Below, one piece after another: positions 1 to 18,490 of a stretch of DNA of 18,490 nucleotides. The DNA is from a candidate division WOR-3 bacterium (lineage in GTDB: Bacteria > Hydrothermota > Hydrothermia > LBFQ01 > DSFT01). Numbering within the stretch: position 1 is the first letter of the stretch; every line of letters starts with the position of its first letter. Position numbers and translations under genes: made by a program. The notes below the pieces were generated by a model, which made no database searches, was not told where the DNA came from, and worked only from the letters and a program-made list of their open reading frames with translations. Where the stretch lies: positions 35,821-54,310 of the forward strand of contig CBFGJN010000004.1 of NCBI GenBank assembly GCA_965649115.1. The letters run 5' to 3'.

Positions 1-105
1 GCCCCCCAAAGCCGAAATATGGGTATTTTAAAGGCGAAGCCTTGAATATAGGGTGGGTGGGAAAATAAAGAAAAATAAATAATTCCAGAATTATTGGACA
101 AGGCA
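1..105 (+). mobile_element. MITE-like element copy 1 (right half; cut by window edge)
   Basis: GCCCCCC..GCCGAAA, GGG 21-23, hairpin AAGGC-GAA-GCCTT 31-43, GGGTGGGTGGG 51-61 and right TIR TTATTGGACAAGGCA 91-105; colinear with the copies at 1535-1685 and 15081-15199. Confidence 0.75.
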
Positions 106-310
106 GATTTATTACGATTTAATAGCAGATACATTTTCTTATTATTATTGGGCTTATGATCCTGCTGATTTTAAATATGGCTCAACTTGTGAGCATTGGG
201 AAAGTTTTAGTGTTTTTCAAGAACCTTTACCTAATGGTAATTATGCGACATTTTTCAGTGAGGTAGTTAGATGGTGGAATTCAAGTAATGCTTGTAATTA
301 TTCGCCTGGA

Positions 311-1447
311 ATGGCAATAGATTCATCAGGTGCTTATATTGGAAGTTTTGTATTTAGTGGTAATCCAAATGTTGGTTTAATATCGGGAAGTTATAAAAAT
401 GTTCTTGGATTTTATTATTTTTATCAAAATCCTTCAAGTGATTTATATAGAAGAATTTCTATAAATTTTGGAAGAGACTATTTATATCATCCGATTGCTA
501 GAAATAACAGCAATTTTTATTTTATTGCATATGAAGTTGAAATATGGAGGCCTTCAAAGAATATAATAAATAAGTGGCAGTGGATAGATTTTGTTGTTTT
601 AAATTCAAATAGGGATACAATAAATACGGGAACAGTAGCAAATAAACTAACACCTTATGGGACATCAAATTATAATAGTGCTAATTTCCCAGAGGATACA
701 TTTCCTGCTAAGCATCCTGATTTGGCAAGTAATGGCAATTCATTTACAGTTGCCTTTACAAGAATATATATAAATTCAAACAATTTTGACGCATCTAATG
801 GGGATTATGATATTGGAAGAAGATATGTTGCTTATTCAACGCCAACTTGTAATTCAAATAAATGGTGCGTTTATGGAGGAGATTATGCAGCAAGAAGTGG
901 AAGAAGAGAATATCATCCAAGAATAGAATTTGATTTACAAAATTATATATTAGCTTATGGTGATTCAATGTTTTCTTTGCCATCATCAAAGTTAAGATGG
1001 AGAGAGATTTGTGGCGCTAATTGTTATTCTGATACAGCGGGTAGAGTAGTTACAAATAATCTTTATAGTTACTCTTGGGGGACAATTACAAGTTCATTTG
1101 ATTTAGTTCCAACTTATGACACAGTTAAATGTACTGATAATACTTGGAGAAGAGTAATGAGATTTGTTTATATAAAAACAACTAATGGTTCTGATAGGGA
1201 TATTTATTATAGAAGAATGGTTCATACAGGTTGTATAACACCTGTTAATTTATCTGAAAATTATAAGGTTTTTCATTATAATCCATTAACCAAGACACTT
1301 TTCGTTAATGAAGATAAAGAAATCAAAATTTATGATATTAGTGGTAAGCTAATAAAAGTTATAAATAGAAAAGGTGCTTATGATTTTAGCAAGTTAAGAA
1401 AGGGTGTTTATTTAATAAACGGAAAAGAAAAAATTGTTGTTTATTAG
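311..1447 (+). CDS. Secreted-type protein with C-terminal T9SS (Por) sorting domain; probably an N-terminally truncated remnant
   Basis: C-terminus YNP...IKIYDISGKLIK...LRKGVYLI..KEKIVVY is a typical T9SS type A CTD; body is Y/N/S/C-rich. The frame is open upstream to a TAA at 80-82, with protein-like codons from ~107 but no ATG or signal peptide before 311. Confidence 0.7.
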   Translation: MAIDSSGAYIGSFVFSGNPNVGLISGSYKNVLGFYYFYQNPSSDLYRRISINFGRDYLYHPIARNNSNFYFIAYEVEIWRPSKNIINKWQWIDFVVLNSNRDTINTGTVANKLTPYGTSNYNSANFPEDTFPAKHPDLASNGNSFTVAFTRIYINSNNFDASNGDYDIGRRYVAYSTPTCNSNKWCVYGGDYAARSGRREYHPRIEFDLQNYILAYGDSMFSLPSSKLRWREICGANCYSDTAGRVVTNNLYSYSWGTITSSFDLVPTYDTVKCTDNTWRRVMRFVYIKTTNGSDRDIYYRRMVHTGCITPVNLSENYKVFHYNPLTKTLFVNEDKEIKIYDISGKLIKVINRKGAYDFSKLRKGVYLINGKEKIVVY

Positions 1448-1488
1448 CTTCAAGACAAAATTAGGATTTTCGGAATTATTTATTACAA

Positions 1489-1685
1489 TGTTTAATAAAT
1501 AACTTATGAAAAATTCATTAAAACTATTGTTTTTAGGGCGAAGCCCCTCTCTGCCGAAAAATGGGTATTTATAAAGCGAAGCTTTAAATATAGGGTGGGC
1601 GGGTAAAGAATAGGAATAATTATACTTAATTTCTCACCCAGCGTATATAGAAAAATATATAATTTTAGAATTATTGGACACAGCA
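1489..1685 (+). mobile_element. MITE-like element copy 2 (near full length, degenerate left end)
   Basis: TGTTTAATAA left end, AATAACTTATGAAAA, GGGC-GAA-GCCC hairpin, TAAAGC-GAA-GCTTTA hairpin 1572-1586, GGGTGGGCGGG 1593-1603 and right TIR TTATTGGACACAGCA 1671-1685. Confidence 0.8.
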
Positions 1686-1703
1686 CCTAAATAAATAATT
1701 ATC

Positions 1704-1737
1704 CTTTAAAATTTTCAAGCTTTTGAAAAGGAGGTTA
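1704..1737 (+). promoter_or_regulatory. Putative -10 box (CTTTAAAATT) and strong Shine-Dalgarno (AAGGAGGT) for the Uma2-rplT-pheS operon
   Basis: TAAAAT motif shared with other operon starts in the window; AAGGAGGT 1728-1735 lies 6 nt before the TTG at 1742. Confidence 0.55.
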
Positions 1738-1741
1738 TAAA

Positions 1742-2215
1742 TTGATTTTAGATAGAAAAATTCGGACTTATGATGATTATTTAAAATTAAGTGATGATAA
1801 AAGGTTTGAAGTAATTAGAGGAAGGTTTGTTGAAATGGTAGGAGCAAGTTTTGGGCATCAAAATGTCTTAACAATTTTATTAATGAAATTGCGAAAATTT
1901 TGTGATAAGAATAACTTAGGTAAAGTTATTCCTTATATTGTTTTTATTTCAAATGAGAAACTTCATTTAATAAAGCATTCATTATTTGGTGTTCCTGATT
2001 TAGTTGTAGAAGTTGTTTCAGATAGTTCGGAGAAGAAAGATAAAATTATTAAAAAGAGATTATATGAAAAGTTTGGAGTTAAGGAGTATTGGATAGTTGA
2101 GCCAAACAAGAAGAAAATTAGTGTTTATGTAATGGAGAATAATAGATATGCTCTTTATTGTAAAAGTAAGGTGCTTGAAGGTTTTGAGATTGATTTAAAG
2201 GAGGTTTTTGAATGA
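1742..2215 (+). CDS. Uma2 (DUF820) family PD-(D/E)xK endonuclease, possibly with internal deletions
   Basis: TYDDY, RFEVIRG, HQ, GVPDLVVEVVS, KKRLYEKFGVKEYWIVEP and final FEIDLKEVF are Uma2 motifs; TTG start with strong SD; the first PD motif reads PY. Confidence 0.85.
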   Translation: MILDRKIRTYDDYLKLSDDKRFEVIRGRFVEMVGASFGHQNVLTILLMKLRKFCDKNNLGKVIPYIVFISNEKLHLIKHSLFGVPDLVVEVVSDSSEKKDKIIKKRLYEKFGVKEYWIVEPNKKKISVYVMENNRYALYCKSKVLEGFEIDLKEVFE

Positions 2216-2837
2216 AGGTTTTAAATGGAAGAATTTGGACTTATGAAGAAATAAGTGAAATTCCAGAGCATTCAATAATTTTAAATGGTAAAGAGGTTGA
2301 AATTATGGCAGCGAGTGTTAAGCATGGAAGATGGGTTTTTGAAGTTTCTAATAAATTGAATAAAATTTTTAGAAAAAAATATATTATTATGGTTGGGGAA
2401 GTTGGAATTTTAATCAATAGGAAACCACTTCTTATATTATCAGCAGATATTGTTTTAATATCTAAAAAGAAACTTAAAGATATTTCTGATAGAATTTTAG
2501 AAATTGCGCCAGATTTAATTATAGAGATTGAAAAAGAAAAGGAGGAGGTTGATATTGATGAGAAGATAAATTATTATAGTTCAATTGGCATTAAGAAGCA
2601 GGTATGGATTTTATTAAGCAAGAGGGAGGTTTTGGTTATTGAGGATAACAAGAGGTCTACTTATCATTTTGATGATGAGATAGAGCTTCTTGAAGGGAAG
2701 AAAATGAAATTTTCAGATATTGAAAAGGAGGTTTTTGAATGAAGGTTTTAAATGGAAGAATTTGGACTTATGAAGAAATAAGTGAAATTCCAGAGCATTC
2801 AATAATTTTAAATGGTAAAGAGGTTGAAATTATGGCA
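2197..2837 (+). repeat. 114-bp exact direct repeat (2197-2310 and 2724-2837) at the 5' ends of the Uma2 paralogs
   Basis: AAAGGAGGTTTTTGAATGAAGGTTTTAAATGG...GAAATTATGGCA is identical at an offset of 527 bp. Confidence 0.9.
2212..2742 (+). CDS. Uma2 family endonuclease (divergent), tandem paralog A
   Basis: [46 protein letters not shown] motifs; ATGA overlap with the upstream gene plus SD. Confidence 0.8.
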   Translation: MKVLNGRIWTYEEISEIPEHSIILNGKEVEIMAASVKHGRWVFEVSNKLNKIFRKKYIIMVGEVGILINRKPLLILSADIVLISKKKLKDISDRILEIAPDLIIEIEKEKEEVDIDEKINYYSSIGIKKQVWILLSKREVLVIEDNKRSTYHFDDEIELLEGKKMKFSDIEKEVFE

Positions 2838-3269
2838 AGTTCAGATATTCACGCTGTATGGTTGGGTCAAATTTATCTAAAATTGTATAAACTTTATAAA
2901 GATTCCTACTGGATTCTTATTGGCGAGATTGGTATTTTGATAAGTAAAGAGCCATTAATTATTTTAGCAAGTGATATTGCTATTATCTCAAAATCCAAAA
3001 TGCCCAAACTTAAAGAAAGAATTTTGGAAATCCCACCTGATTTAGTAATAGAGATTGAAAAAGAAAAGGAAGAGGTTGATATTGAAGAGAAAATTAATTA
3101 TTATAGTTCTATTGGAGTTAAGAGGCAAATATGGGTTTTATTAAGCAGAAGGGAAATTTTAGTTATTGAGGATAATAAGAGGGTTATTTATAGTTTTGAT
3201 GATGAAGTTGAGCTTCTTGAAGGGAAGAAAATGAAGTTTTCAGATGTTGAAAAGGAGGTTACCTTATGA
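2739..3269 (+). CDS. Uma2 family endonuclease (divergent), tandem paralog B
   Basis: Same length (176 aa) and motifs as 2212..2742; first 33 codons identical; ATGA overlap and SD. Confidence 0.8.
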
Positions 3270-3622
3270 GAGTTAAAACAGGTTTTGTTAGAAGGAGAAA
3301 ACATAAGAAAATTTTGAAATTAGCAAAAGGCTACTATTTATCAAAGTCAAAGGTTTTCAGAAGGGCAAACGAACAAGTAATAAGGTCATTGTATTATTCT
3401 TATGTTCATAGAAGGGAGAGAAAAAGAGATTTTAGGAAACTTTGGATTATTAGAATAAATGCTGCTGTTAGAGAATTTGGATTAAATTATTCAAAGTTTA
3501 TTTATGGTCTTAAAAAACTTAATATAAATTTAAATAGAAAAGCTCTCTCAGAAATGGCTATAAATGAGCCTGAAGCCTTCAAAAAACTCGTTGAAGATGT
3601 AAAATTGGCACTAAATGCATAA
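3266..3622 (+). CDS. rplT: 50S ribosomal protein L20
   Basis: [60 protein letters not shown]. Confidence 0.98.
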
Positions 3623-4586
3623 TTTAGATGAAATTAAATTAAGAGCATTAGAAGAGTTAGAAAAAATTAAAAATTTAAATGATTTAAACGATTTTAAAAC
3701 AAAATATCTTGGTAAAAGAGGTATCATTACTGAAATGATAAAAAATTTGAAAAATTTAACACTTGAAGAAAGAAAAATTTTTGGAACTAAATTAAATGAA
3801 ATTAAGGAATTTTTAGAGGAACAAATTGAAAAAAAGAAAGAAGAATTACTTGATTTTGAAGGTGAATTTTACGATATATCGTTATTAGGATATAAAAGAG
3901 AATTTGGTAATATCCATCCAATAACAAGAGTTTTTAATGAAATTATTGAGATTTTTGTTAGTATGGGTTTTAGTGTTGAAGATGGACCTGAAATTGAAGA
4001 AGATTGGTACAATTTTAGTGCTTTAAATATCCCAAAGTATCATCCTGCAAGAGATATGCAAGACACTTTTTATTTAGAGAATAATAATCTTTTGAGAACA
4101 CATACATCACCAATACAAATTAGAACAATGGAAAGAAAAAACCCTCCTATTAGGATAATAGCACCAGGTAGAGTTTTTAGAAGAGACGAATTGGATGCTA
4201 CACATTCTCCCGTTTTTCATCAACTTGAAGGATTGTACGTTGATAAAAATGTTTCGCTATCTGATTTGAAAGGGACAATTGAAATTTTCATTCATAAATT
4301 ATTTTCAGAAAATATAGAAATTAAGTTTAGACCTTCGTACTTTCCTTTTACAGAACCAAGTTTAGAAGTTTTAATATATAAGGATAATAAGTGGTTGGAA
4401 ATTCTTGGAGCAGGAATGGTTCATCCAAATGTATTGAAAAATTGTAATATAAATCCTGAAATTTATAGTGGATTTGCTTTTGGTCTTGGTATTGAAAGAA
4501 TAGCAATGATAAAATACAATATAAACGATATAAGGCTTTTTTATGAGAATGATATAAAATTTTTAAAACAAATAAAAGGAGGTTAG
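3615..4586 (+). CDS. pheS: Phenylalanine--tRNA ligase alpha subunit
   Basis: [72 protein letters not shown]. Confidence 0.98.
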
Positions 4587-4590
4587 AGAT

Positions 4591-5754
4591 ATGAAGAGGT
4601 TGATTATCTTTATAAGTTTGTTCCTTTGGTCATGTGCTCCACAAAAGGCTAAGATAATGGTTGCATTGCCTCTTGAAAAATCTGGTTTAACCTATGGAAT
4701 AGATGCTAGAAATGGTATAAATCTTGCTGTTCTTGATCTTGGAGAAAAGAATGTAACTTTTACTTATTGTGATACAGAAGGTAAGGCTGAAAAGTTCAAC
4801 GAGTGTTATGAAAATGCTAAAAAACAAGGTGTAAGTATTGTTGTTGGTCCTATCTTAACAAGAGAGCTTGATGATAAATCAATTGAATTGATAAATAAAT
4901 ATAAAATTCCCGTTATATCTCCTTCTATAACAACAGATGAAATTTTCAATAAAAGTGAATATATATTCAGTGTTGCAGCTTCTAATTCAATAATTGCTGC
5001 TAATTTAGCTTACGTTCTGAGTGAAGTTGGTGTCAATGAAGTTATTATTGTAAAAGACCCAAATAGTCAATATTCTCTTGATATTTCAGAAAAAGAGAAA
5101 AAGGCTCTAAGCAAATATAATATAGCTGTTGTTGATGAAGTTAATTTTAGAGGTTCAAGAGCAGACCTAATAAATGATTTGAAAAATTCCATTTCTAAAT
5201 TTAAGAAAGAAGAAAAAACTGCTCCAAAAAAGGGTAAATCAAAAGAAGAAGCATCTAAACCACCTTCAAAAAATGCAATTATTATAAATACTTATGCTGT
5301 TGATTTAGATAAAATTCTCTTAGATATTAGAGAACAATTGAAGTACAATGGTATATTAGCAGGTCCTGATGCTTGGGATGAAATAAAAGAACAAGCAGTT
5401 AAAATTCCTGGTGAGAACTTTTACGTTGCTCACTTTTTCCCATTAGAAAATAAAAAGACAGAAGAATTTTTCAATAAGTATAAACAACAATTTAAAACTA
5501 TACCATCTTCCTGGTCCGCTTTGAGTTATGATGCTTTAAGTATAGTAATAAATGCTATAAGGGAAGCGAAAGCTATTGAAACTCAAAGAATACTTTTAAG
5601 AATGAAATATCAAGACTATAACGGACTTACAGGGAGAATATCTTATGGAGGTGATAATAAACCAGATGATAAATCTGTTGTAATTATAAAATATACAGGT
5701 GATAAGAAAGGATTTATAAGAAGAACTAACGTTGCTGGAACAATAGCTCAATAA
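4591..5754 (+). CDS. Lipoprotein, branched-chain amino acid ABC substrate-binding (LivK/Peripla_BP_6-like) family
   Basis: Lipobox LWSC; G.DARNGINLAV, IVVGP, KIPVISPS, DPNSQYS, F.NKYKQQF, ALSYDA, YNGLTGRISY match type I periplasmic binding proteins; no cognate permease adjacent. Confidence 0.8.
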   Translation: MKRLIIFISLFLWSCAPQKAKIMVALPLEKSGLTYGIDARNGINLAVLDLGEKNVTFTYCDTEGKAEKFNECYENAKKQGVSIVVGPILTRELDDKSIELINKYKIPVISPSITTDEIFNKSEYIFSVAASNSIIAANLAYVLSEVGVNEVIIVKDPNSQYSLDISEKEKKALSKYNIAVVDEVNFRGSRADLINDLKNSISKFKKEEKTAPKKGKSKEEASKPPSKNAIIINTYAVDLDKILLDIREQLKYNGILAGPDAWDEIKEQAVKIPGENFYVAHFFPLENKKTEEFFNKYKQQFKTIPSSWSALSYDALSIVINAIREAKAIETQRILLRMKYQDYNGLTGRISYGGDNKPDDKSVVIIKYTGDKKGFIRRTNVAGTIAQ

Positions 5755-5769
5755 GGGGCTTTTGCCCCT
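5754..5769 (+). terminator. Hairpin AGGGGC-TTTT-GCCCCT (putative terminator); copy 1 of a 20-bp direct repeat
   Basis: Perfect stem starting at the last base of the stop codon, followed by TAATTTT; identical to 8456-8471. Confidence 0.65.
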
Positions 5770-5775
5770 TAATTT

Positions 5776-5923
5776 TGGTGTATCTAATAAATGGTGTTAA
5801 GTAATTACACACAAATCAGTTTAGGAGCGGAGGGGATTTGAACTATAAGTAATTATCCAAATTTTCAAGGTGGGTAGGGAGAACATAGAAAAATAAATAA
5901 TTTCAAGATTATTAGACACACTA
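5776..5923 (+). mobile_element. MITE-like element copy 3 (both TIRs, replaced interior, 9-bp target duplication)
   Basis: TGGTGTATCTAATAA 5776-5790 and TTATTAGACACACTA 5909-5923 are inverted repeats; GGTGGGTAGGG..ATAGAAAAATAAATAATTTC internal; flanks CCTTAATTT 5767-5775 and TCTTAATTT 5924-5932. Confidence 0.75.
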
Positions 5924-5975
5924 TCTTAATTTCACTATTAGGCTTTATAATTTTCGTCTCGAAGGAGGTACGATT

Positions 5976-8456
5976 ATGATTAAATTTTTATGGGTAATTT
6001 TTCTTTGGTGGTTTGTAATCTTCTCCACTTCACTTTTTGGTGCTCAAACTCCCAAGAACTACAATCCGGAGATTATAAAGGAGTGGATAAACTTTGATAT
6101 TAAAATTTATAAAGGTTTTTCGTTAAACAAGGGGCAAATTGACAAACAGGTTCTTTTATATTCAAAAAATGGAGATTTTAACATATACCTAACGCAGAAA
6201 GGTCTGTCATTTCTAATGTTTGCTACTAAGTCAAAAGAGGAGGTATTGTACTCACGAATAGACTATGATCTAATAGGAGCTAATATTAAGCGAGAAAATA
6301 TCATCCTTGAAGATGAAATAGAAAATTATTATGAAAATTATTATAATGAAAATGCTCCTGATGGTATATTATTCGTCAAGTTATATAGGAAGGTGAGAAT
6401 AAAGGAAATCTATCCCAAAATTGACCTTATATTGAAATATGATGAAAACGGTAACTTTCATTATGAATTTGAAGCTAATCCGAATTCAAATATAGCTCAA
6501 ATAAAAATAGAAGTCAAGAATGCTCAAATAGAGCCAACTGATGAAGGAAAGAGCATTTTACTGAAAACTCCTCTTGGTATAATGAAAGATGGTAATCTCA
6601 TTGCTTATGAAGGAAATAAAGTTATAAATGCTAAATATCTTATAAATAATAATTTGTTGAGCTTTGATGTTAAAAACTATGAAAATAGAGATAAACTCCT
6701 CATTGATCCTTACACACTTGTCTGGTCAACTTATTATGGAGGAAGTAATTATGATCACGCCAACTACATAGCTTCCGATCCCAGCAGCAACATCTTTGTA
6801 GTTGGTTGGACACTCTCATCTAACTTTCCAACATATAATCCAGGAAATAGTGCTTATTTTCAAGGAACTCTTGCGGGTTCTTATGATGCTTTTATTTTAA
6901 AATTTAACAATAATGGTGTTAGATTATGGGCAACCTACTATGGTGGTAGTAATTATGACTTTGCGACTTCGGCAGGAGCTGACGCTAATGGAAATGTCTT
7001 TGTAGTTGGAGGAACCTTCTCAACCAACTTTCCTACTTACAATCCAGGAGGTAGCACTTATTATGATGGAACTTGTGGGACTGATGGTAATTGTAACTAT
7101 GATCCTACTTATGGTTATAAAAATGATGCTTTTATTTTAAAATTTGATAATAATGGTGTTAGGTTATGGGCAACTTATTATGGAGGCAGTAGCTGGGAAC
7201 GGGAGTGCGGAACATCAGGTACCTATTCAGCTTCAGCAGCTACTTATGATTATTGCTCTTTAAAAGTTGATAGAAATAATAATTTGATAGTTGTGGGTAT
7301 GACTATGTCTTTTGATTTTCCTATTTACAATCCAGGTGGTGGTGCTTACTATCAGACTTGCCATAATAATGACTTTGATGCTTTTATTCTGAAATTCTCA
7401 AATTCAGGTCAATTGTTGTGGGCTACTTGTTATGGCGGAAGTAACTGGGATTACGCTCGTTCCGTTGATGTTGATGGAGCAAATAATATATTTGTTGTAG
7501 GATTTAAGGTTTATTCATCTGATTTTCCAACTTATAATCCAGGTGGAGGTGCTTATTATCAAACTTGTAGTGGTATTGATTGGGATGTATTTATTTTAAA
7601 ATTTAATAGTTCAGGAGTTAGGTTGTGGGCAACTTGTTATGGAGGTTCTAATCATGAATGGGCTGATGGGGTTGCTGTTGATAACAACGGGAAAGTTTAT
7701 GTTATAGGTGGAACTTGGTCTACTGACTTTCCCACATTAAATCCGGGTGGAGGTTATTATTTTGACGGAACTCTTAATAGTGGCGATGCATTTATTTTAA
7801 GATTTAATAATAGCGGTGTTTTGGAGTGGGCTACTTATTATGGCGGAAGTGGTGATGAAGCTAATACTCAACATTCTATAACTACTGATGGGAGCGGTAT
7901 TTATATAGTTGGTAATACCACATCTACTGATTTTCCTACATACAATCCAGGTGGTGGTGCTTATTATCAGTCTAGCCTTTCTGGAGGCAGGGATGCTTTT
8001 ATTTCTGTATTTAATAATGGTCAAGTATTATGGTCAACCTATTTTGGTGGAAGTGGTGATGAATGTTATAATTTTAATTGTCATTTAGCGATAGCTGGTA
8101 ATAACCTTTTTGTAGTTGGCTCAACAGTTTCAAGTAATTTTCCTCTTCAAAATTTGATAGGTGCATATTATCAAGGAAATCTTACTGGTTTTAGAAATGC
8201 TTTCATCTCGAAGTTCTCTAATATAACTCCAACTTCTATTTATGAGTCTTTCATTTCATTTATAAAAATCCAAAATAATCAAGTTATAATAAAACTAAAT
8301 GAAAATTTAAGTGGAAACTATAAAGTTTATACAATTCTTGGGAGGGAAATAACAAGCGGAGAAATAAGTAATAATGAAATTTCATTTGCAGTGCCAAATA
8401 GTGGAATTTATATTATAAAAGTTAAAAACAAACAATTAAAAATTATTGTTAAATAA
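5976..8456 (+). CDS. Secreted SBBP beta-propeller repeat protein with C-terminal T9SS-type sorting domain
   Basis: Hydrophobic signal peptide; N-terminal domain ending LLIDP..L.WSTYYGGS; seven W(S/A)T(Y/C)(Y/F)GGS...G.T.S.DFP...DAFILKF repeats; C-terminal YKVYTILGREI...SGIYIIKV; SD AAGGAGGT. Confidence 0.88.
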   Translation: MIKFLWVIFLWWFVIFSTSLFGAQTPKNYNPEIIKEWINFDIKIYKGFSLNKGQIDKQVLLYSKNGDFNIYLTQKGLSFLMFATKSKEEVLYSRIDYDLIGANIKRENIILEDEIENYYENYYNENAPDGILFVKLYRKVRIKEIYPKIDLILKYDENGNFHYEFEANPNSNIAQIKIEVKNAQIEPTDEGKSILLKTPLGIMKDGNLIAYEGNKVINAKYLINNNLLSFDVKNYENRDKLLIDPYTLVWSTYYGGSNYDHANYIASDPSSNIFVVGWTLSSNFPTYNPGNSAYFQGTLAGSYDAFILKFNNNGVRLWATYYGGSNYDFATSAGADANGNVFVVGGTFSTNFPTYNPGGSTYYDGTCGTDGNCNYDPTYGYKNDAFILKFDNNGVRLWATYYGGSSWERECGTSGTYSASAATYDYCSLKVDRNNNLIVVGMTMSFDFPIYNPGGGAYYQTCHNNDFDAFILKFSNSGQLLWATCYGGSNWDYARSVDVDGANNIFVVGFKVYSSDFPTYNPGGGAYYQTCSGIDWDVFILKFNSSGVRLWATCYGGSNHEWADGVAVDNNGKVYVIGGTWSTDFPTLNPGGGYYFDGTLNSGDAFILRFNNSGVLEWATYYGGSGDEANTQHSITTDGSGIYIVGNTTSTDFPTYNPGGGAYYQSSLSGGRDAFISVFNNGQVLWSTYFGGSGDECYNFNCHLAIAGNNLFVVGSTVSSNFPLQNLIGAYYQGNLTGFRNAFISKFSNITPTSIYESFISFIKIQNNQVIIKLNENLSGNYKVYTILGREITSGEISNNEISFAVPNSGIYIIKVKNKQLKIIVK

Positions 8457-8471
8457 GGGGCTTTTGCCCCT
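8456..8471 (+). terminator. Hairpin AGGGGC-TTTT-GCCCCT; copy 2 of the 20-bp direct repeat, abutting the next ATG
   Basis: AATAAGGGGCTTTTGCCCCT 8452-8471 is identical to 5750-5769; no poly-T tail here, so terminator function is uncertain. Confidence 0.5.
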
Positions 8472-9275: not shown

Positions 9276-9374
9276 TGTTTTGTCCAATAAATAAATCAGA
9301 ATCAATAACTTATGAAAATTTTTTAAAACTCATTTATTTTATATTGGGGTTTAATATAGGAGGCTGTGCCTCCT
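9276..9374 (+). mobile_element. MITE-like element copy 4 (left part)
   Basis: Left TIR TGTTTTGTCCAATAA 9276-9290, AATCAATAACTTA 9300-9312, GGGGTTT, hairpin AGGAGGC-TGT-GCCTCCT 9358-9374; colinear with 18375-18480. Confidence 0.7.
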
Positions 9375-9389
9375 TACGCGTAGCCTTTT
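9358..9389. terminator. Putative terminator hairpin(s) between convergent genes
   Basis: AGGAGGC/GCCTCCT stem, or alternatively AGGCTGTGC/GCGTAGCCT (9361-9386, with G:U pairs) followed by TTT. Confidence 0.45.
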
Positions 9390-9392
9390 GAT

Positions 9393-11382: not shown

Positions 11383-11426
11383 ATCGTAATTTTTGATAAT
11401 TTTAAAGTAAAGGTTAGTAATGAATT

Positions 11427-11479
11427 TGCTGTGTTTAGTAATTCTGAAATTTTTTACTTTTCTATTTTTCCCCACCCAC
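11427..11479 (-). mobile_element. MITE-like element copy 5 (right-end fragment, inverted)
   Basis: Reverse complement GTGGGTGGGGAAAAATAGAAAAGTAAAAAATTTCAGAATTACTAAACACAGCA matches 15146-15199. Confidence 0.75.
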
Positions 11480-11510
11480 AGTTAGCAATTTGCTTTAAAA
11501 TTTTAATACT

Positions 11511-12053: not shown

Positions 12054-12063
12054 TTAAAGGGAG

Positions 12064-12906
12064 GTGGAACCTATGGTCTTAGTTAGTACAGAGTGGTTAT
12101 ATGAGAATTTAGATAATGAAAATGTTAGAATTCTTGAATGTTCAGAAGATGAGTTATCTTATGATGAATCGCATATTCCTAATGCTCTTAAAGTGTCTTG
12201 GCAAAATGATTTAAGAAGTAAGGAATGGAGAGATTTTTTATCAAAAGAAGAATTTGAAAAACTTATGTCAAAACTTGGAATAACTAACAAAACAAAAGTT
12301 ATTTTATACGGTGATAAAGCGAACTGGTTTGCATGTGCGGCATTCTGGGTTTTCAGATATTATGGACATGAAGAATTATATATCCTTGATGGTGGAAAGA
12401 AAAAGTGGAAAGATGAAGGAAAGCCTATTACTAGCGAAATAATTAAAGTAGATAGAACAATATATAAAGCAAAAGATAGAGATGAAAGCATTAGAGCATA
12501 TTTATATGAAATTAAAAAATCACTTGCTGAAAATAGAAAGGACTTTATATTAGTGGATATTCGCTCTCCTATGGAATATTCGGGAGAAATTATAAGTGTT
12601 TTGGCAGAAGAAAGTGCTTATATTGGAGGTCATATTCCTGGTGCAGTTAACATCCCATGGAATGAAAATGTTAATCAGGACTGGACATTCAAAAGTGTAA
12701 AGGAACTTAAAGAATTATATGAATCAAAAGGTGTTACACCTGATAAAGAAGTAATAGTATATTGTAGAATTGGAGAAAGAAGTGCTATAAATTGGTTTGT
12801 ATTAAAGGAAATCCTTAAATATCCGAGAGTTAAGAATTATGATGGTTCTTGGACGGAATGGGGAAATAGTGTAAGGACGAGAATAAAAAGGGGTTATGAA
12901 CCATGA
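12064..12906 (+). CDS. Thiosulfate sulfurtransferase (tandem rhodanese, TssA/CysA type)
   Basis: LVSTEWL, HIPNA, LYGDKANWFA, LDGG, GHIPGAVNIPW, active loop YCRIGERS, NYDGSWTEWG; GTG start with SD AAGGGAG. Confidence 0.95.
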   Translation: MEPMVLVSTEWLYENLDNENVRILECSEDELSYDESHIPNALKVSWQNDLRSKEWRDFLSKEEFEKLMSKLGITNKTKVILYGDKANWFACAAFWVFRYYGHEELYILDGGKKKWKDEGKPITSEIIKVDRTIYKAKDRDESIRAYLYEIKKSLAENRKDFILVDIRSPMEYSGEIISVLAEESAYIGGHIPGAVNIPWNENVNQDWTFKSVKELKELYESKGVTPDKEVIVYCRIGERSAINWFVLKEILKYPRVKNYDGSWTEWGNSVRTRIKRGYEP

Positions 12907-13529
12907 AGATATTAGCAATTGAACTTGCCAAAGTTTTAGCAAATAAAGAGACAGGATTATTTGTATTTCAAAATAAAGATGGTGGTGTAATTAGAGTTTT
13001 TTTGAAAAATGGAGAAATCGTTGGAATAGATGGAACTTATGGTGAAAATGTAAATGAACTTGGAAGATTGTTCTTATGGGAGGGAGAAGTTATAAAAAAG
13101 CCATTACCAAAAGACTTTAAATCAGATAAAAAATATGAAATTCCTGGATTTTATAAAGTTTTAGTATGGAAAATTATTGATAGTCAAAAGGAAACAAGGT
13201 ACGATATAAATTTTGAAAAATTAAAACAAAAAATTAGTGAAGCCTTTACATTAATTGACTTTAAAATTGAAAAGGGTTTGTTTTATGATTTCTCTGAAAT
13301 TTTGAATTTAGTTAAAAAATATACTTCAAAAAATGTAGTAATAGTTAATGAGGATTTTATAGCATTTTTTGATAATAATCAAGTTATTGGTATATTTTCA
13401 AGATGGGGATTTATAGATTATCAAAAAGCACTACAATTATCCAAGGAAAATTTTTATGAATGGAAAATTTATATGTTTCCAGAAAGTGATTTTGAAAAAC
13501 TTCTTAAAGAACTGAATTTAAATGATTAG
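12903..13529 (+). CDS. Hypothetical protein (N-terminus reminiscent of DUF4388/PATAN-like fold)
   Basis: Translationally coupled on both sides; KETGLFVF...IRVFLKNGEIV...LFLWEG resembles DUF4388 (weak). Confidence 0.7.
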   Translation: MKILAIELAKVLANKETGLFVFQNKDGGVIRVFLKNGEIVGIDGTYGENVNELGRLFLWEGEVIKKPLPKDFKSDKKYEIPGFYKVLVWKIIDSQKETRYDINFEKLKQKISEAFTLIDFKIEKGLFYDFSEILNLVKKYTSKNVVIVNEDFIAFFDNNQVIGIFSRWGFIDYQKALQLSKENFYEWKIYMFPESDFEKLLKELNLND

Positions 13530-14679
13530 TATATTGCTAATTGGTGATGAATTGCTTGAAGGATTTACAAATGAAAAAAATTTATTTATTATTTCAAATT
13601 TTTTAAGAAGTTTTAGAAAACAACTTCCAAAAAAAGCAATAATTGTAAAAGATAATAAAGAAGAAATTGTAAAAGCGGTTAGGAATTTGTTAGATGAAAA
13701 ACCAAAGGTTATTATAACAACAGGTGGAATTGGTCCTACGGAAGATGATTTAACAATTGAGAGTATTTCTTATGCTTTAAATTTAAATTTAGTAAAAACA
13801 ACATTTGAAACTGAAATTGAAAAATATAAATATGTTATTGATGGCTTTAAATTGATAAAAAATCCAAGGGGAAAAGCACCTGCTCAAATTGGTTATTATC
13901 AAGATGTTCTAATAATTATTCTTCCTGGTGTTCCTTATGAAATTGAAGGATTTTTAAATGAAAGTGAAATTGGAAAAATTTTAATAGATGTTATTGAGGA
14001 AGGTTATGATTTTTTAATTATAAAAACAAATGGGATATATGAGACGAAATTAAGAGAGATTTTACTACCACATTATGAAAAGCTTGGTTTCTTTGGATAT
14101 TTACCAAGAAATGATGGTGTTTATTTAAAATTTAAGGGGAATAAAGAGAAACTTAATGAAATTAAAAGTTTTCTTGATAATTTACTAAAAGATTACATTT
14201 GGGGTTATGATGATGATAGAATTGAAGTGCTTTTAGGAAATTTACTTAAAAGGAACAATTTAAGAATTTCAATAGCTGAAAGTTTTACAGGTGGGAAGGT
14301 TTCAAATTTAATAACAAGTGTTCCTGGTTCTTCAAATTATTTCAAAGGTTCAATTGTTGCTTATAGTAAAGATATTAAGAAGAAAATATTGAATGTTAGG
14401 ACTGAAAATATTTATTCAAAAGATTGTGTTATTGAAATGGCTAAAAATGTTAAAGAATTATTTAATAGTGATATTGGAATTTCAACAAGTGGTGTTGCAG
14501 GACCTGATAAAGATGACAGTGTAGAAGTTGGAACATGCTTTTTTGGAATATCATTTAAAGAAAATTTAGCATTTGAATATAAATTTAGTGGAACAAGAAT
14601 GGCTATTATTGAGAAGGGAGCTTACTTTATTCTTTATAAATTATACAAATGCCTACTGCATAATTTTCAGAGTGACTAA
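13522..14679 (+). CDS. cinA: CinA family protein (molybdopterin-binding domain plus NMN deamidase PncC domain)
   Basis: IGDELLEG, ITTGGIGPTEDDLT, NPRGKAP, LPGVPYE, SIAESFTGG, VPGSSNYF.GSIVAYS, STSGVAGP. Confidence 0.92.
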   Translation: MISILLIGDELLEGFTNEKNLFIISNFLRSFRKQLPKKAIIVKDNKEEIVKAVRNLLDEKPKVIITTGGIGPTEDDLTIESISYALNLNLVKTTFETEIEKYKYVIDGFKLIKNPRGKAPAQIGYYQDVLIIILPGVPYEIEGFLNESEIGKILIDVIEEGYDFLIIKTNGIYETKLREILLPHYEKLGFFGYLPRNDGVYLKFKGNKEKLNEIKSFLDNLLKDYIWGYDDDRIEVLLGNLLKRNNLRISIAESFTGGKVSNLITSVPGSSNYFKGSIVAYSKDIKKKILNVRTENIYSKDCVIEMAKNVKELFNSDIGISTSGVAGPDKDDSVEVGTCFFGISFKENLAFEYKFSGTRMAIIEKGAYFILYKLYKCLLHNFQSD

Positions 14680-14992
14680 TTGATATTTCTATTTTTCTAT
14701 TTCCAAGCATTTCTTTAAGTTTTCCATTTAAAATAACAATTGGCTTTCCTTTATCTATATTTAAAACTTCAATATCTTTAAATGAAAAACCCGAAGTCAT
14801 ACCAATTTCAAGTGCTTTTAAAACAGCTTCTTTTATAGCAAATCTTCCCGCTAAACTATGAAAAGAATTTTTTCTTGAAAAACAATAATTTATTTCATTC
14901 TCTGTAAAAATTCTATTGAGAAATTTAGAACCGAATTTTTCATATAATTTTTTTATTCTTTCAACTTCAACAATATCAATACCAACATTCAT
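14627..14992 (-). CDS. acpS: Holo-[acyl-carrier-protein] synthase
   Basis: VGIDIVEVERI, RIFTENE, LAGRFAIKEAVLKAL, GKP, ISISHS. Confidence 0.96.
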   Translation of the reverse strand: MNVGIDIVEVERIKKLYEKFGSKFLNRIFTENEINYCFSRKNSFHSLAGRFAIKEAVLKALEIGMTSGFSFKDIEVLNIDKGKPIVILNGKLKEMLGNRKIEISISHSENYAVGICIIYKE

Positions 14993-15015
14993 AATTTAAA
15001 ATTTTAAAGGACTTT

Positions 15016-15199
15016 AAATGTCCAAATTATCAATAATTTATAAAAGCTTTAAGGAAATTGTTGATTTAATTGGGGGTTAAGGGGGGCGCGTTAGCCCCCC
15101 ACAGCCTAAAAATGGGCATTTTAAAGCCGAAGGCTTAAATTTAGGGTGGGTGGGAAAAATATAGAAAAATATATTTTTTCAGAATTACTAGACAAAGCA
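15016..15199 (+). mobile_element. MITE-like element copy 6 (left TIR missing)
   Basis: TATCAATAATTTA 15028-15040, GGGGGGC-GCGTTA-GCCCCCC 15081-15100, GGG 15114-15116, AAGCC-GAA-GGCTT 15124-15136, GGGTGGGTGGG 15144-15154, right TIR TTACTAGACAAAGCA 15185-15199. Confidence 0.8.
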
Positions 15200-15242
15200 G
15201 TATATTCCATATTTTATCCTTTAAACTTTTAAAACTATAATT

Positions 15243-16427
15243 ATGATTGTGCTTTCGGGAATGAGACCAACAGGAAAATTACATTTGGGTCATCTTGTTG
15301 GTGTTCTAGAAAATTGGAAAAAATTACAAGAAAAGTATCAATGTTATTTTTTTATTGCTGACTTTCATGCTTTGACTGATGACCCTAAAATTGCTTTTGA
15401 AATTAGAAATAATACAATAGAAGTAGTTAAAGATTGGTTAAGTGTAGGTATTGAACCTAATAAAAGTATATTATTTATTCAATCAAAAATTAAAGAGCAT
15501 TCTGAGCTTCATTTAATTTTATCTATGCTTGTTTCATTAAGTAGATTATTTAGAAATCCAACATATAAGGAAAAAGTTGAAGAATTAAGAAAAAAGGGCA
15601 TTGAAACGAAAATTAACTTAAAAATTGATGATGAAAAAATTGATGAAACAATAAAGTTAAATGTTGAATTTGTAGTTAATATCTTTGAAAATGAAAAAAA
15701 TTTAGAAAAAATAAAAGACCAAATATATAGAAAATTAAAAAGTGATATTCTTGGAATTATTAGAGAGACAATTGAAAATTCTATTGAATTTGATGAAATT
15801 TCAACAAATGCTGAAATTAGTTATGGATTTCTTGGTTATCCTGTTTTACAATCAGCAGATATTCTAATTTATAGAGCAAATTTTGTTCCCATTGGTCAAG
15901 ATCAAGTTCCTCATTTAGAATTGACAAGAGAATTAGCAAAGAAATTTAATAGTTTATTTAAGGAAATTTTTCCAATTCCAGAACCTCTTCTAACTGAGTT
16001 TCCAAAAGTTTTAGGAATCGATGGAAGAAAAATGAGTAAAAGTTATAATAATGCAGTTTATATTTCAGACGATAGCCAAACACTAAAAGATAAAATTAGA
16101 AATTACTTTACAGACCCACAAAAAATTAGAAAAAATGACCCAGGAAGACCTGATATTTGTCCAATATATTATTTACAAAAGATATTTAATAATGAGGAAA
16201 AAGAGGAAATTTATAAGGATTGTTCAACTGGAAAGCTTGGTTGTGTTGATTGTAAAATGAAATTGTTTAATAAGCTTGATAAATTTTTAGAACCAATTAG
16301 GGAAAGAAGAAATTTAATAAAAGATGATGAAGTTATTGATATATTAAATGATGGCTCAAATAAGGCAAAATTAAGAGCCCAAGAAACGATGAATTTAGTT
16401 TATGATGCTATGAATTTTAAGTTTTGA
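15243..16427 (+). CDS. trpS: Tryptophan--tRNA ligase with ~70-aa insertion
   Basis: SGMRPTGKLHLGH (HIGH), GYPVLQSADIL, VPIGQDQVPHLELTRE, KMSKS, TDP. Confidence 0.97.
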   Translation: MIVLSGMRPTGKLHLGHLVGVLENWKKLQEKYQCYFFIADFHALTDDPKIAFEIRNNTIEVVKDWLSVGIEPNKSILFIQSKIKEHSELHLILSMLVSLSRLFRNPTYKEKVEELRKKGIETKINLKIDDEKIDETIKLNVEFVVNIFENEKNLEKIKDQIYRKLKSDILGIIRETIENSIEFDEISTNAEISYGFLGYPVLQSADILIYRANFVPIGQDQVPHLELTRELAKKFNSLFKEIFPIPEPLLTEFPKVLGIDGRKMSKSYNNAVYISDDSQTLKDKIRNYFTDPQKIRKNDPGRPDICPIYYLQKIFNNEEKEEIYKDCSTGKLGCVDCKMKLFNKLDKFLEPIRERRNLIKDDEVIDILNDGSNKAKLRAQETMNLVYDAMNFKF

Positions 16428-17158
16428 TGATTATTTATGGTAAGAATGTCATTTTATGTGCTTTAAATTCTAAATTTAAAATTTCAAAAGTTTTAATCTA
16501 TGAAAATTTAAGAGATAAGGATAAGTTCATTCAACTTTGCAAATCCAAAAATGTTCCTTATGAACTTGTTAGTAAATTTAGATTAGAACAATTAGTTAAG
16601 GAGGATAATCATCAAGGATTATGTGCTTACTTTGAAGATGAAATTCAAATTAAAGTTCAAGATAACATAAATAATTTTATAAAAAGCAAAGAAAATAAAA
16701 TAATTTTGATAATTGATAGAATTCAAGACCCTCATAATTTTGGCTCAATCATAAGAACTGCTCAAATTCTAAATGTTAATAACATTATTTCAACATATAC
16801 TCAATCTGTAAAAATAACACCAAGTGTTATAAAAGCTTCTGCTGGTGCTATATTTTATATAAACTTTTCATATTCAGATAATCTCAAAAGGATTATTCAA
16901 ATTTTAAAAGAAAATCAAGTGAGAATTTATTCACTTGAAAGGAATGGTGAGTATATTGAGAATGTTAGTATAGGAAGTGAAAAAATTGCCCTTATAGTGG
17001 GCTCGGAACATTATGGAATAAGAAGTTCATTAATTCAATTATCCGAAAAAATTTTAACTTTAAGGACCTACAACAATCAAATTAATTCATATAATGTTTC
17101 AAATGCAGTTTCAATTGCACTTTATATATTGACAGTAAAAAGTTTAAAGTTAAATTAA
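16427..17158 (+). CDS. rlmB: SpoU/TrmH family RNA 2'-O-methyltransferase, 23S rRNA G2251 RlmB-like
   Basis: IYGKN, NHQG, DRIQDPHNFGSIIRTA, KASAGA, IVGSEHYGI, INSYNVSNA; ATG 16427 overlaps the trpS TGA. Confidence 0.8.
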   Translation: MIIYGKNVILCALNSKFKISKVLIYENLRDKDKFIQLCKSKNVPYELVSKFRLEQLVKEDNHQGLCAYFEDEIQIKVQDNINNFIKSKENKIILIIDRIQDPHNFGSIIRTAQILNVNNIISTYTQSVKITPSVIKASAGAIFYINFSYSDNLKRIIQILKENQVRIYSLERNGEYIENVSIGSEKIALIVGSEHYGIRSSLIQLSEKILTLRTYNNQINSYNVSNAVSIALYILTVKSLKLN

Positions 17159-17167
17159 AGATGTCTA

Positions 17168-17198
17168 TAATGCCCGTTTTTTGGCAGTGGGGGGCTAA
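17168..17198 (-). mobile_element. MITE-like element copy 7 (internal fragment, inverted)
   Basis: Reverse complement TTAGCCCCCCACTGCCAAAAAACGGGCATTA matches 15091-15121 TTAGCCCCCCACAGCCTAAAAATGGGCATTT. Confidence 0.65.
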
Positions 17199-17253
17199 GA
17201 CTCTGCCTTATTTCGTAGGGTGAGTATTATTTACCCTTTAAAATTATCAAACT

Positions 17254-18213
17254 ATGATAGAAAAATTAAATAAAGTTTTAGAGAAACTACCACCAGAACA
17301 TAGAGAAATAATAAGGGAAGCATTTACAATTCTTATTGAAGAAGTAATAAACACTATTATTAGGGAAATCAGGCAGGGATTTTCAGAACAAGTAAAAGAA
17401 AATGAGAGAATATGGCAAGCAATTAAGGAAGGCTTTGAAAGACAAGAGAAAGAAAATCAAAGAATATGGCAGAATATAGAAAGAATATGGCAATCTATTG
17501 AAGAAATGAGAAAAGATATGAAAGAAGGATTTGAAAGACAAGCAAAAGAAAACGAAAGAATTTGGCAAACTATTGAAAAAGTATGGCAGGCAATTGATAG
17601 ATTAGAAAAATCAATTGAACAAACAAGAAAAGATATGAATGAAAGATTTGAAAGACAAGAAAAAGAAAATCAAAGAATATGGCAGAATATAGAAAGAATA
17701 TGGCAATCTATTGAAGAAATGAGAAAAGATATGAAAGAAGGATTTGAAAGACAAGAAAGAGAAAATCAAAGAATATGGCAGGCAATTGAAAAACTAACAC
17801 AAGCAATTGACAGATTAGATAAAAAAATAGACAGAAAAATAACATCACTTGGAGCAAGATGGGGATTAATGGCAGAAGAAACATTTAGAGGAGGAATAAG
17901 AACTATTATTGAAGATTTAGGTTATGCTGTTGAAAATATCGTATTCTTTGATGAAGAAGGATATGTCTTTTTAAAGCCAAGTCAAGTAGAAATAGATATA
18001 ATCATTAAAGATAGTAAGAAAATAGCAATTGAAATAAAATCATCAATTAGCGAAGGTGATGTTTCTACATTTGAAAGGAAAGTTAAATTATATGAGAAGA
18101 AATTTAATACAAAAATTGACAAGAAAATTATTTTAACACCATTTGCTAATGATAAAGCAGTCGTTATTGCTAAAAGCTTTGATATTGAAATCGTTGAAGA
18201 GTTAAAAGATTAA
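17254..18213 (+). CDS. DUF3782-like protein: repetitive coiled coil plus C-terminal PD-(D/E)xK nuclease-like domain
   Basis: Heptad repeats ERIWQAIE/FERQEKEN, then LGARWGL.AEETFR.G, DEEGYVF..PSQVEIDIIIKD..IAIEIKSS, FERKVKLYEK. Confidence 0.85.
   Translation: MIEKLNKVLEKLPPEHREIIREAFTILIEEVINTIIREIRQGFSEQVKENERIWQAIKEGFERQEKENQRIWQNIERIWQSIEEMRKDMKEGFERQAKENERIWQTIEKVWQAIDRLEKSIEQTRKDMNERFERQEKENQRIWQNIERIWQSIEEMRKDMKEGFERQERENQRIWQAIEKLTQAIDRLDKKIDRKITSLGARWGLMAEETFRGGIRTIIEDLGYAVENIVFFDEEGYVFLKPSQVEIDIIIKDSKKIAIEIKSSISEGDVSTFERKVKLYEKKFNTKIDKKIILTPFANDKAVVIAKSFDIEIVEELKD
17434..17755 (+). repeat. In-frame internal duplication (17434-17542 and 17647-17755)
   Basis: 109-bp repeat with one synonymous mismatch at an offset of 213 bp, encoding FERQEKENQRIWQNIERIWQSIEEMRKDMKEGFERQ twice. 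Confidence 0.88.
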
Positions 18214-18229
18214 ATTAAACCGATTTTAA

Positions 18230-18363
18230 AAATGTCAAGTCCTTGAATCTCAATAACTTATTGAAGCTTTAAGGAAATTATTGATTTGTAGAATAGATAT
18301 TTTAAAGCCAAAGGCTTAATTATAGGGTGGGTGGGAAAATAAAGGATTATTCTATATTTCCAG
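18230..18363 (+). mobile_element. MITE-like element copy 8 (degenerate, lacks TIRs and first hairpin)
   Basis: TCAATAACTTA..AAGCTTTAAGGAAATTATTGATTT matches 15030-15067; AAGCC-AAA-GGCTT 18305-18317; GGGTGGGTGGG 18325-18335. Confidence 0.7.
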
Positions 18364-18374
18364 CAAATTGTCTT

Positions 18375-18490
18375 TGCTTTGTCCAATAAATAATGTTAAA
18401 TTTTTGATAATCAATAACTTATAAAAATTTTAAGAAAATTATATATTTTACGGGGGGTTTTGAGGGGGGCGAAGCCCCCCACTGCCGAAA
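18375..18490 (+). mobile_element. MITE-like element copy 9 (left half; cut by window edge)
   Basis: Left TIR TGCTTTGTCCAATAA 18375-18389, AATCAATAACTTA 18409-18421, GGGGGGC-GAA-GCCCCCC 18464-18480, ACTGCCGAAA. Confidence 0.8.

What the first reader, a model, noticed from the sequence alone, without database searches (positions are those of the whole stretch)
1..18490. A ~200-bp structured MITE-like element occupies every large intergenic gap (9 copies or fragments in 18.5 kb)
Seen: related sequence at 1-105, 1489-1685, 5776-5923, 9276-9374, 11427-11479(-), 15016-15199, 17168-17198(-), 18230-18363 and 18375-18490. Joining copy 9 to copy 1 gives a ~204-bp unit: left TIR TGCTTTGTCCAATAA, AATCAATAACTTA, G-run, hairpin 1, GGG, hairpin 2, GGGTGGGTGGG, A/T tract, right TIR TTATTGGACAAAGCA. 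It has no coding capacity and no transposase is in the window. Established: non-autonomous MITEs (e.g. Neisseria Correia elements) have TIRs and are mobilised in trans. Inference: this is an abundant repeat family, possibly undescribed, whose density and modular conservation suggest it has been domesticated as a regulatory or chromosome-organising element.
Basis: partly seen in the sequence, partly recalled or inferred. Interest (0 to 1): 0.85.

Follow-up and report, generated by a model that had tools for sequence, protein, structure and literature searches.

The report
Promoter-homing miniature transposon family
The repeats are copies of a 205-base non-coding jumping element, moved by an IS903-like insertion sequence in the same genome. 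Both mostly land the same way round about 22 bases upstream of this hot-spring bacterium's promoter box, so they fill gaps between genes, a habit reported so far for an unrelated transposase family.

Summary
All nine copies are real. They belong to a ~205-bp MITE with 15-bp TIRs and 9-bp target duplications. It gives 738 hits covering 5.2% of a 1.85-Mb Ca. Hydrothermia genome. Its partner is a co-resident, multi-copy IS5-family IS903-group element (~1,052 bp, 300-aa DDE transposase) whose interior dropped out of the assembly. Its ends carry the same TIR and a 9-bp duplication. Window copy 1 has a clean empty site, inside a gene, in a sister species.

The gaps are filled because insertion is oriented and promoter-anchored. 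Of 309 outermost MITE right ends, 174 lie 21-22 nt upstream of the host -10-like box; so do 11 of 16 IS right ends. Only 3 of 173 left ends and 0.4% of random sites do. Repeat hits build head-to-tail stacks with 9-bp spacers, the newest copy usually nearest the gene.

Domestication is not supported: occupancy is independent between sister species, and congeners nearly lack the element. More distant relatives of the IS show no homing. How the promoter is recognised is inferred, not shown. This scan had already reported the same reading on other pieces of this genome.

The parts
1..105 (+). MITE copy 1, right half (model 100-205) with right TIR at 91-105; left half lies before the window. Inserted inside a secretion-tail protein gene
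   Evidence: empty site with a single 9-mer in G002; continuous 614-aa frame in G002
106..114 (+). right copy of the 9-bp target duplication of copy 1 (left copy differs at 1 base)
1489..1685 (+). MITE copy 2, decayed left end, internal insertion, right TIR with 1 mismatch
1707..1712 (+). host -10-like hexamer TAAAAT, 21 nt from the right TIR of copy 2
   Evidence: sequence
5776..5923 (+). MITE copy 3, old and decayed (right TIR 4 mismatches)
5946..5951 (+). host -10-like hexamer TATAAT, 22 nt from the right TIR of copy 3
9276..9380 (+). MITE copy 4, left half only, in a convergent gap
11427..11480 (-). MITE copy 5, right-end remnant
11399..11404 (-). host -10-like hexamer TAAAAT, 22 nt from the right TIR of copy 5
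15016..15199 (+). MITE copy 6, left TIR lost, between divergent acpS and trpS; G002 has a different copy in the opposite orientation here
15222..15227 (+). host -10-like hexamer TAAACT of trpS, 22 nt from the right TIR of copy 6
17167..17203 (-). MITE copy 7, internal fragment (hairpin 1 region), no TIR
18232..18365 (+). MITE copy 8, internally deleted, right TIR decayed; distal member of a stack
18366..18374 (+). 9-bp spacer between copies 8 and 9, as in other stacks
18375..18490 (+). MITE copy 9, perfect left TIR, cut by the contig end

Best explanation
A selfish MITE/IS pair that homes to promoters. SHOWN: a ~205-bp MITE shares its ends with a co-resident, recently active IS5-family IS903-group element, and both make 9-bp duplications. 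Both sit with the right end facing, and mostly 21-22 nt (less often 13-16 nt) from, the host's housekeeping promoter box (CTTTAAAATTTT around a TAAAAT hexamer), which exists without the element. Copies stack head-to-tail by independent insertions, often sharing one 9-mer. INFERRED: the transposase places its target capture by the promoter, either tethered to RNA polymerase-sigma or reading the promoter DNA, with a weak local CA-N9-TG preference. The cut falls where a -35 box would lie, which this host's promoters appear to lack, so the duplicated 9 bp leave the promoter intact. Insertions then cost little, copies build up to about 40% of such promoters, and each new copy pushes older ones outward. 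Recombination and transposase-led rearrangement between copies shuffle transcription units together with their promoters. The internal IHF-like word, hairpins and G-runs are most likely cis aids to mobilising a short element, not host regulators.
For: TSD: exact 9 bp in 98 of 241 TIR pairs, control 0.000. Partner: 10 left and 16 right IS ends at contig breaks, with 6 exact 9-bp pairings; P0012 matches both ends at 90-100% and passes the IS5 equivalog cut-off (245.5 vs 140 bits). Promoter: the motif peaks 6-10 nt before ATG genome-wide and lies 7-27 nt before 33 of 46 tRNA/tmRNA genes. Spacing at 21-22 nt: 174 of 309 MITE right ends vs 3 of 173 left ends; 11 of 16 IS right ends vs 0 of 10 left; 38 of 57 young copies; random intergenic sites 0.4%. 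Replication elsewhere: 13 of 26 outermost right ends in 385 kb of G002 at 21-22 and 7 at 14; a sister IS (75% aa) in metagenomes at 22, 22, 21, 21 and 14 in 5 of 7 right ends, plus a weak sixth at 22. Not just safe harbours: intact copies in 47 of 139 divergent vs 13 of 153 convergent gaps, and 95 vs 8 facing the gene in tandem gaps. Stacks: 46 of 49 neighbours share orientation; neighbours are no more alike than random pairs (0.809 vs 0.808); the proximal copy looks younger in 22 vs 13 of 35 (p 0.005).
Against: 68 of 309 outermost right ends have no promoter motif, and window copy 1 sits inside a gene. The polarity of stacks is imperfect (13 of 35 the other way), and only 15 of 36 proximal copies carry a perfect own TSD. 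A related IS in G013 (46% aa, near-identical TIR) has the motif at 0 of 6 right ends, and archaeal relatives show no fixed flank motif (the right-flank sets mixed two families). P0012 has no extra domain that could be a tether. All sites are survivors of selection; no transposition, transcript start or protein contact was observed.
Confidence: 0.75

Rival explanations
1. Selection sieve. The transposase inserts broadly into AT-rich DNA, and only insertions just upstream of promoters survive.
For: Only 1,861 of 95,759 element bases lie in ORFs that cover 77% of the genome. Some intragenic insertions exist, so the enzyme can insert elsewhere.
Against: Selection would not give a 1-2 base spacing, or one orientation for an element with near-symmetric ends. 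Convergent gaps, the safest sites, are under-used. Near-identical IS copies and young MITEs already show the spacing.
Confidence: 0.1
2. Domesticated regulator. The host keeps the element at promoters as an upstream activating, DNA-bending or insulating cassette, and the fixed spacing reflects that function.
For: About 40% of promoters are occupied (196 of 477; 165 of 428). G and C columns are better kept than A and T (0.89/0.88 vs 0.80/0.81). An IHF-like word occurs in 81 of 108 copies. Hairpin 2 keeps its pairing through a C-G/G-C swap. HU/IHF-family genes are present. Correia elements regulate genes through promoters and an IHF site (PMC10969869, passages).
Against: Occupancy is independent between sister species. 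Congeners nearly lack the element but keep the promoters. The autonomous IS, which lacks this interior, shows the same spacing. Many promoter-side copies are decayed remnants. No extended conserved RNA fold was found.
Confidence: 0.1
3. End-targeting. The transposase prefers sites next to existing TIRs, or a TIR-like half-site; stacks grow this way and the promoter link is a side effect of the promoter's TGCTTT word.
For: 104 right and 120 left ends have another TIR exactly 9 nt away. In the 13-16 class, 14 of 52 flanks read TGCT right after the duplication. A weak CA-N9-TG bias is seen in 39 solo targets.
Against: The main 21-22 class has no such half-site (G at position 11 in 14 of 174). Solo insertions and first insertions of the IS show the spacing. 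It probably acts only as a second, local rule.
Confidence: 0.05

Closest known systems
IS903-group IS5 elements and MITEAba12 (ISAba12-driven; PMC6382973, passages read)
   Same: TIR related to IS903's (11 of 14 bases; motif from PMC8477213, passage), 9-bp TSD, ~1,050-bp single-ORF parent (PMC3281130 table passage), and a short AT-rich MITE sharing only the ends.
   Different: MITEAba12 has 90 copies over 31 genomes and no target trend beyond AT-richness; IS903's listed target is a symmetric palindrome (PMC2577343 table passage). Here the target is asymmetric and promoter-anchored, there are hundreds of copies in one genome, and they form stacks.
TnGBS ICEs and ISLre2 / ISKra4 IS (prokaryotic Mutator-like transposases; PMC3942029, passages read)
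   Same: Oriented insertion, right end next to a housekeeping promoter at a fixed distance.
   Different: Unrelated transposase family (no PF00872 match in this genome). They insert 15-17 bp upstream of the -35 box; here the end lies 21-22 nt from the -10-like box, and the duplication covers the -35 position of promoters that show no -35 consensus.
Neisseria Correia elements, ERIC (PMC10969869, passages and section 3.3 read)
   Same: High-copy MITEs, often just upstream of genes, with an IHF site (Correia).
   Different: A different transposase family and short TA duplications (recalled). The passages read give no fixed-distance promoter rule. Regulation is shown for Correia, not here.

Membership tests
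MITE | Short (<500 bp) with no coding capacity | tested here: met
   Modal length 203-207 bp; no ORF family in the copies
MITE | Terminal inverted repeats | tested here: met
   Sharp 15-bp boundary; 285 elements with both TIRs
MITE | Target-site duplication | tested here: met
   Exact 9 bp in 98 of 241; other lengths at most 10 above chance
MITE | Autonomous partner with the same ends | tested here: met
   IS ends at 26 contig breaks share the TIR and the first ~25 bp on the left
MITE | Empty orthologous sites | tested here: met
   One exact empty site (window copy 1); 21 of 26 promoters occupied in G000 are free in G002. Strain-level test inconclusive
IS5 family, IS903 group (parent IS) | IS5 DDE transposase | tested here: met
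   P0012: NF033579 245.5 bits vs cut-off 140; 30% identical to ISAba10, with D115, D194, E256 and a Y-R-E-K pattern invariant (residue roles recalled)
IS5 family, IS903 group (parent IS) | ~1,050 bp, one ORF, 15-27-bp IR, 9-bp DR | tested here: met
   1,052 bp inferred from the ends plus the length of P0012; 6 exact 9-bp pairings. The interior is not assembled in this genome
IS5 family, IS903 group (parent IS) | IS903's symmetric target WTTYA-N9-TRAAW | tested here: not met
   39 solo targets show a weak CA-N9-TG bias plus a one-sided promoter motif
IS5 family, IS903 group (parent IS) | Listed in ISfinder | not testable with these tools
   ISfinder is not available
Promoter-targeting Mutator-like elements (TnGBS, ISLre2, ISKra4) | Mutator-like transposase | tested here: not met
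   PF00872 finds 0 matches in the genome; the partner is IS5
Promoter-targeting Mutator-like elements (TnGBS, ISLre2, ISKra4) | [quoted passage not shown] | tested here: met
   the distance differs from theirs
Structured ncRNA | Rfam match, or a conserved fold with covariation | tested here: not met
   No Rfam match on the copies; consensus fold of 8 pairs, covariation term -0.14. No RNA run was available to test expression

The most novel reading that the evidence does not exclude
An IS5/IS903-group transposase has evolved, without any extra domain and only within one Hydrothermia lineage, to dock on promoter-bound RNA polymerase and insert at the -35 position of -10-only promoters. Its MITE has occupied about 40% of promoters, records insertion order in polarised stacks, and breaks the genome into promoter-headed units that get reshuffled. 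Close non-homing relatives make the targeting determinant directly mappable.
Probability: 0.4. Interest if true: 0.8.

Novelty: new variant of a known kind. Interest (0 to 1): 0.6.

Why it matters
The MITE itself is a new member of a familiar class. Its landing rule is what matters. The promoter-homing precedent I found in print belongs to Mutator-like transposases; this would be an independent origin in the IS5 family. Homing and non-homing transposases 46-75% identical are available for swap experiments. It offers a plain explanation for a MITE load at or above the top of a published survey: 137-154 near-complete copies per Mb and 5.2% of the assembly with remnants, against 123 per Mb and 1.23% in bacteria (PMC11602168, passages; methods differ, and counting only copies with a perfect TSD gives about 56 per Mb). 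The insertion sites also map the promoters of an uncultured lineage.

Tried and rejected
Transposase families PF00872, PF01609 and PF13737 gave no match in the own genome because the IS interior is unassembled; it was found through a related protein from G013. The first metagenome scan with that fragment found nothing. Laying contigs of 4 runs on an 18.5-kb stretch holding 5 copies with perfect TSDs showed no joint skipping exactly one copy among the 15 joints shown; 79 were not shown, so this is inconclusive. No RNA holder was listed. A test of swapped TSDs between copies gave 5 against a shuffled mean of 1.2 (maximum 6), inconclusive. The hairpin-2 swap shows 25 changes on a tree against 26 for shuffled labels; a 205-bp tree cannot tell recurrence from mosaicism. 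trpS synteny in G001, G003 and G004 was uninformative, and synteny is broken at control promoters in those genomes too. The right TIR as a -35 donor was rejected: its TTGACA-like hexamer ends about 27 nt before the -10-like box in the main class. A complex prediction of the transposase with the host's sigma-70 could not be run, so that contact is untested. A generic sigma-70 scan gave 5 sites against 2.1 expected and missed the host motif. The three Rfam hits are far below their cut-offs and off the copies. Ten literature searches returned no paper on a promoter-homing IS5 element or on this MITE. The library lacks most subscription papers, and Hu and Derbyshire 1998 on IS903 targets was not held. 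I read no supplements; the tables of PMC11602168 could list this MITE.
Full report
OBSERVATION. The window is G000:C4:35821-54310 of a 1.85-Mb, 27.6% GC draft genome in 99 contigs. Members of its TrpS 90% cluster are named Candidatus Hydrothermia (phylum WOR-3 recalled), and the four best holders among sequencing runs are hot-spring metagenomes. A profile from 108 full-length copies finds all nine reported places, at E 2e-4 to 2e-47, with no comparable hits on reversed sequence. Genome-wide it gives 738 hits, 253 of them near-complete, covering 95,759 bp (5.2%). 87 of 198 contig ends stop in the element, so these are lower bounds.

IT IS A MITE. The flanks of 241 exact TIR cores show a sharp boundary. 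Of 251 TIR pairs 120-300 bp apart, the mode is 203-207 bp. Of the 241 pairs with full flanks, 98 have an exact 9-bp duplication, against 0.000 in random pairings. Window copy 1 has an exact empty site in sister genome G002: one copy of the 9-mer, inside a 614-aa open frame that the element splits in G000. A scaffold gap of 10 N lies within copy 1.

THE PARTNER. Family searches missed a transposase in G000. A PF13737 hit in G013 sat 111 bp inside a near-identical TIR. That protein found two fragments at G000 contig ends. G000 holds 10 left ends (at least 97% alike) and 16 right ends (identical over 100 bp) of one IS at contig breaks; 6 pairs join by an exact 9-bp duplication. P0012 (300 aa) matches the left ends at 90-100% and the right ends at 100%. 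It passes the IS5 equivalog and is 30% identical to ISAba10 with the catalytic residues kept. The inferred length is 1,052 bp. IS903-group elements are about 1,050 bp with 9-bp repeats (PMC3281130, table passage), and the TIR shares 11 of 14 bases with IS903's (PMC8477213, passage). MITE and IS share the TIRs and about 25 bp on the left; the MITE interior has no convincing match to the assembled IS ends.

WHY THE GAPS ARE FULL. Outward flanks of right ends carry a motif at a fixed place; left flanks do not. The motif (CTTTAAAATTTT around TAAAAT) is the host's: it peaks 6-10 nt before ATG over 1,468 ORFs, lies 7-27 nt before 33 of 46 tRNA/tmRNA genes, and is kept at orthologous genes lacking the element. 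I read it as the -10 box of largely leaderless promoters; no -35 consensus shows in 159 unoccupied examples. Transcription starts were not measured. With a matrix built from unoccupied promoters, of 309 outermost right ends 129 lie at 22 nt, 45 at 21, 52 at 13-16, 15 elsewhere and 68 have no motif; 3 of 173 left ends lie at 21-22. Random non-coding sites give 0.4%. The IS gives 11 of 16 right ends (3 more abut a MITE) and 0 of 10 left ends. Young copies give 38 of 57. In the window, 4 of 5 right TIRs lie at 21-22; copy 1 is the exception. In 385 kb of G002, 13 of 26 outermost right ends lie at 21-22 and 7 at 14. A sister IS (75% aa) from metagenomes has the motif at 22, 22, 21, 21 and 14 in 5 of 7 right ends, and weakly at 22 in a sixth. 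Intact copies occupy 47 of 139 divergent but 13 of 153 convergent gaps, and face the downstream gene 95 to 8 in tandem gaps. 196 of 477 strong upstream motifs have a TIR end at these distances.

STACKS. 104 of 428 right ends and 120 of 307 left ends have another TIR exactly 9 nt away. Among 285 two-ended elements there are 41 dimers and 4 trimers, and 46 of 49 neighbours share orientation. Neighbours are no more alike than random pairs, with 0 of 49 at 95% or more, so these are independent insertions rather than tandem duplications. The promoter-side copy scores higher in 27 of 36 stacks and looks younger in 22 vs 13 of 35 (p 0.005). This is what a fixed ruler predicts, since a second insertion reuses the promoter-side duplication. 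It is a tendency: only 15 of 36 proximal copies have a perfect own TSD, and five dimers have matching outer 9-mers with a different inner spacer, as if moved as a unit.

LIMITS OF THE HABIT. The G013 element (46% aa to P0012, near-identical TIR) shows the motif at 0 of 6 right ends, although a small G013 sample hints at similar promoters. Flanks of archaeal relatives fetched show no fixed motif (the right-flank sets mixed two families, and Aquificaceae samples were too few). P0012 has no added domain. Homing therefore looks restricted to one lineage, and its mechanism is inferred.

DOMESTICATION. Occupancy of 58 orthologous promoters is independent between G000 and G002 (5 both, 21 G000 only, 9 G002 only, 23 neither; p 0.54), and shared sites have different 9-mers. 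Exact TIR counts are 344 in G000, 129 in G002, 1 in G003 and 0 in G001 and G004; 400 kb sampled from the last three gave 0 profile hits, though G003 holds a few copies. The interior is patterned. An IHF-like word (consensus recalled) occurs in 81 of 108 copies and four or more G-runs in 107 of 108. Hairpin-1 loops occur in both orientations (for example GAA 22, TTC 12), and hairpin 2 keeps its pairing through a C-G/G-C swap. Interior folding z-scores are -1.4 to -3.4 in 12 copies, but the consensus fold is only 8 pairs. This fits small DNA hairpins and cis sites kept by selection among copies for mobility; a host role is not excluded. Gene order against G002 is broken at 49 of 68 informative MITE clusters (49 uninformative dropped) but at 5 of 24 element-free promoters (4 dropped; p 2e-5). 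'Broken' includes a missing homologue, so this suggests but does not prove element-driven shuffling.

COMPARISON. It is a member of the MITE class and its parent is an IS903-group IS5 element; it fails IS903's symmetric target consensus (PMC2577343, table passage). It works like TnGBS, ISLre2 and ISKra4, which insert oriented 15-17 bp upstream of -35 boxes (PMC3942029, passages), but is not related to them. A MITE review's section on insertion preferences names no fixed-distance rule (PMC10969869, section 3.3). A survey reports that ISs in general often sit in promoter regions (PMC9208149, passages). Ten searches found no report of this element or of a promoter-homing IS5. No match was found in Rfam, plasmids or phages.

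EARLIER NOTES. After I had recorded this reading (note), the scan's index showed eight reports from other pieces of this genome with the same conclusion. They are not independent evidence.

VERDICT. Observation confirmed. MITE confirmed (about 0.97). Promoter-anchored insertion is the best explanation (0.75) and domestication is unlikely (0.1). New variant of a known kind; interest 0.6.

Noticed in passing
L011:1860-3285 (G000:C11:31359-32784): A MITE, a 242-aa cargo ORF, a ~65-aa ORF and a partial MITE lie between perfect outer 9-bp repeats: a likely MITE-bounded composite transposon. The cargo has no Pfam or NCBIfam hit and only weak PD-(D/E)XK-like leads. It is one of 3 such matches among 1,572 end pairs; chance was not computed.
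   Followed up: partly
L232:1501-2202 (G000 rpoD): Sigma-70 region 4.2 in this genus departs from the class consensus (SLDDVAMELGIS against TLEEVG..FGxT), which fits promoters without a -35 consensus. Inference only.
   Followed up: no
genome-wide; G000 vs G002: Even at promoters free of the element in both species, identity falls to about 50% some 15 nt upstream of the -10-like box, while the genes are about 90% alike (23 pairs). This may reflect past insertions and excisions.
   Followed up: partly
G000:C50:14008-14077 (L057): The IS's own transposase gene starts 6 nt after a TAAAAT box, so it appears to use a leaderless host-type promoter.
   Followed up: no
window 5756-5769 and 8457-8470: A short GGGGC-TTTT-GCCCC palindrome follows two gene ends. 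12 such words occur on one strand of the genome; probably terminators, and similar to MITE hairpin 1.
   Followed up: partly
window 1742-3269: Three tandem Uma2-family putative restriction endonuclease genes; two share an identical 114-bp stretch.
   Followed up: no
window 17254-18213: A coiled-coil repeat plus DUF3782/PDDEXK_10 nuclease gene between MITE copies 7 and 8. Similar multi-copy genes elsewhere are also MITE-flanked, which may only reflect promoter homing.
   Followed up: partly
genome-wide: 557 of 871 regions with a G4Hunter score of 1.2 or more overlap the element, and the consensus peaks at 1.9. Quadruplex formation was not tested.
   Followed up: no
L115-L127 (G013), L138-L170: Related ISs with TGC-ended TIRs occur in G013, Aquificaceae, Aminicenantes and thaumarchaeal genomes, often with 8-bp rather than 9-bp duplications.
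   Followed up: partly
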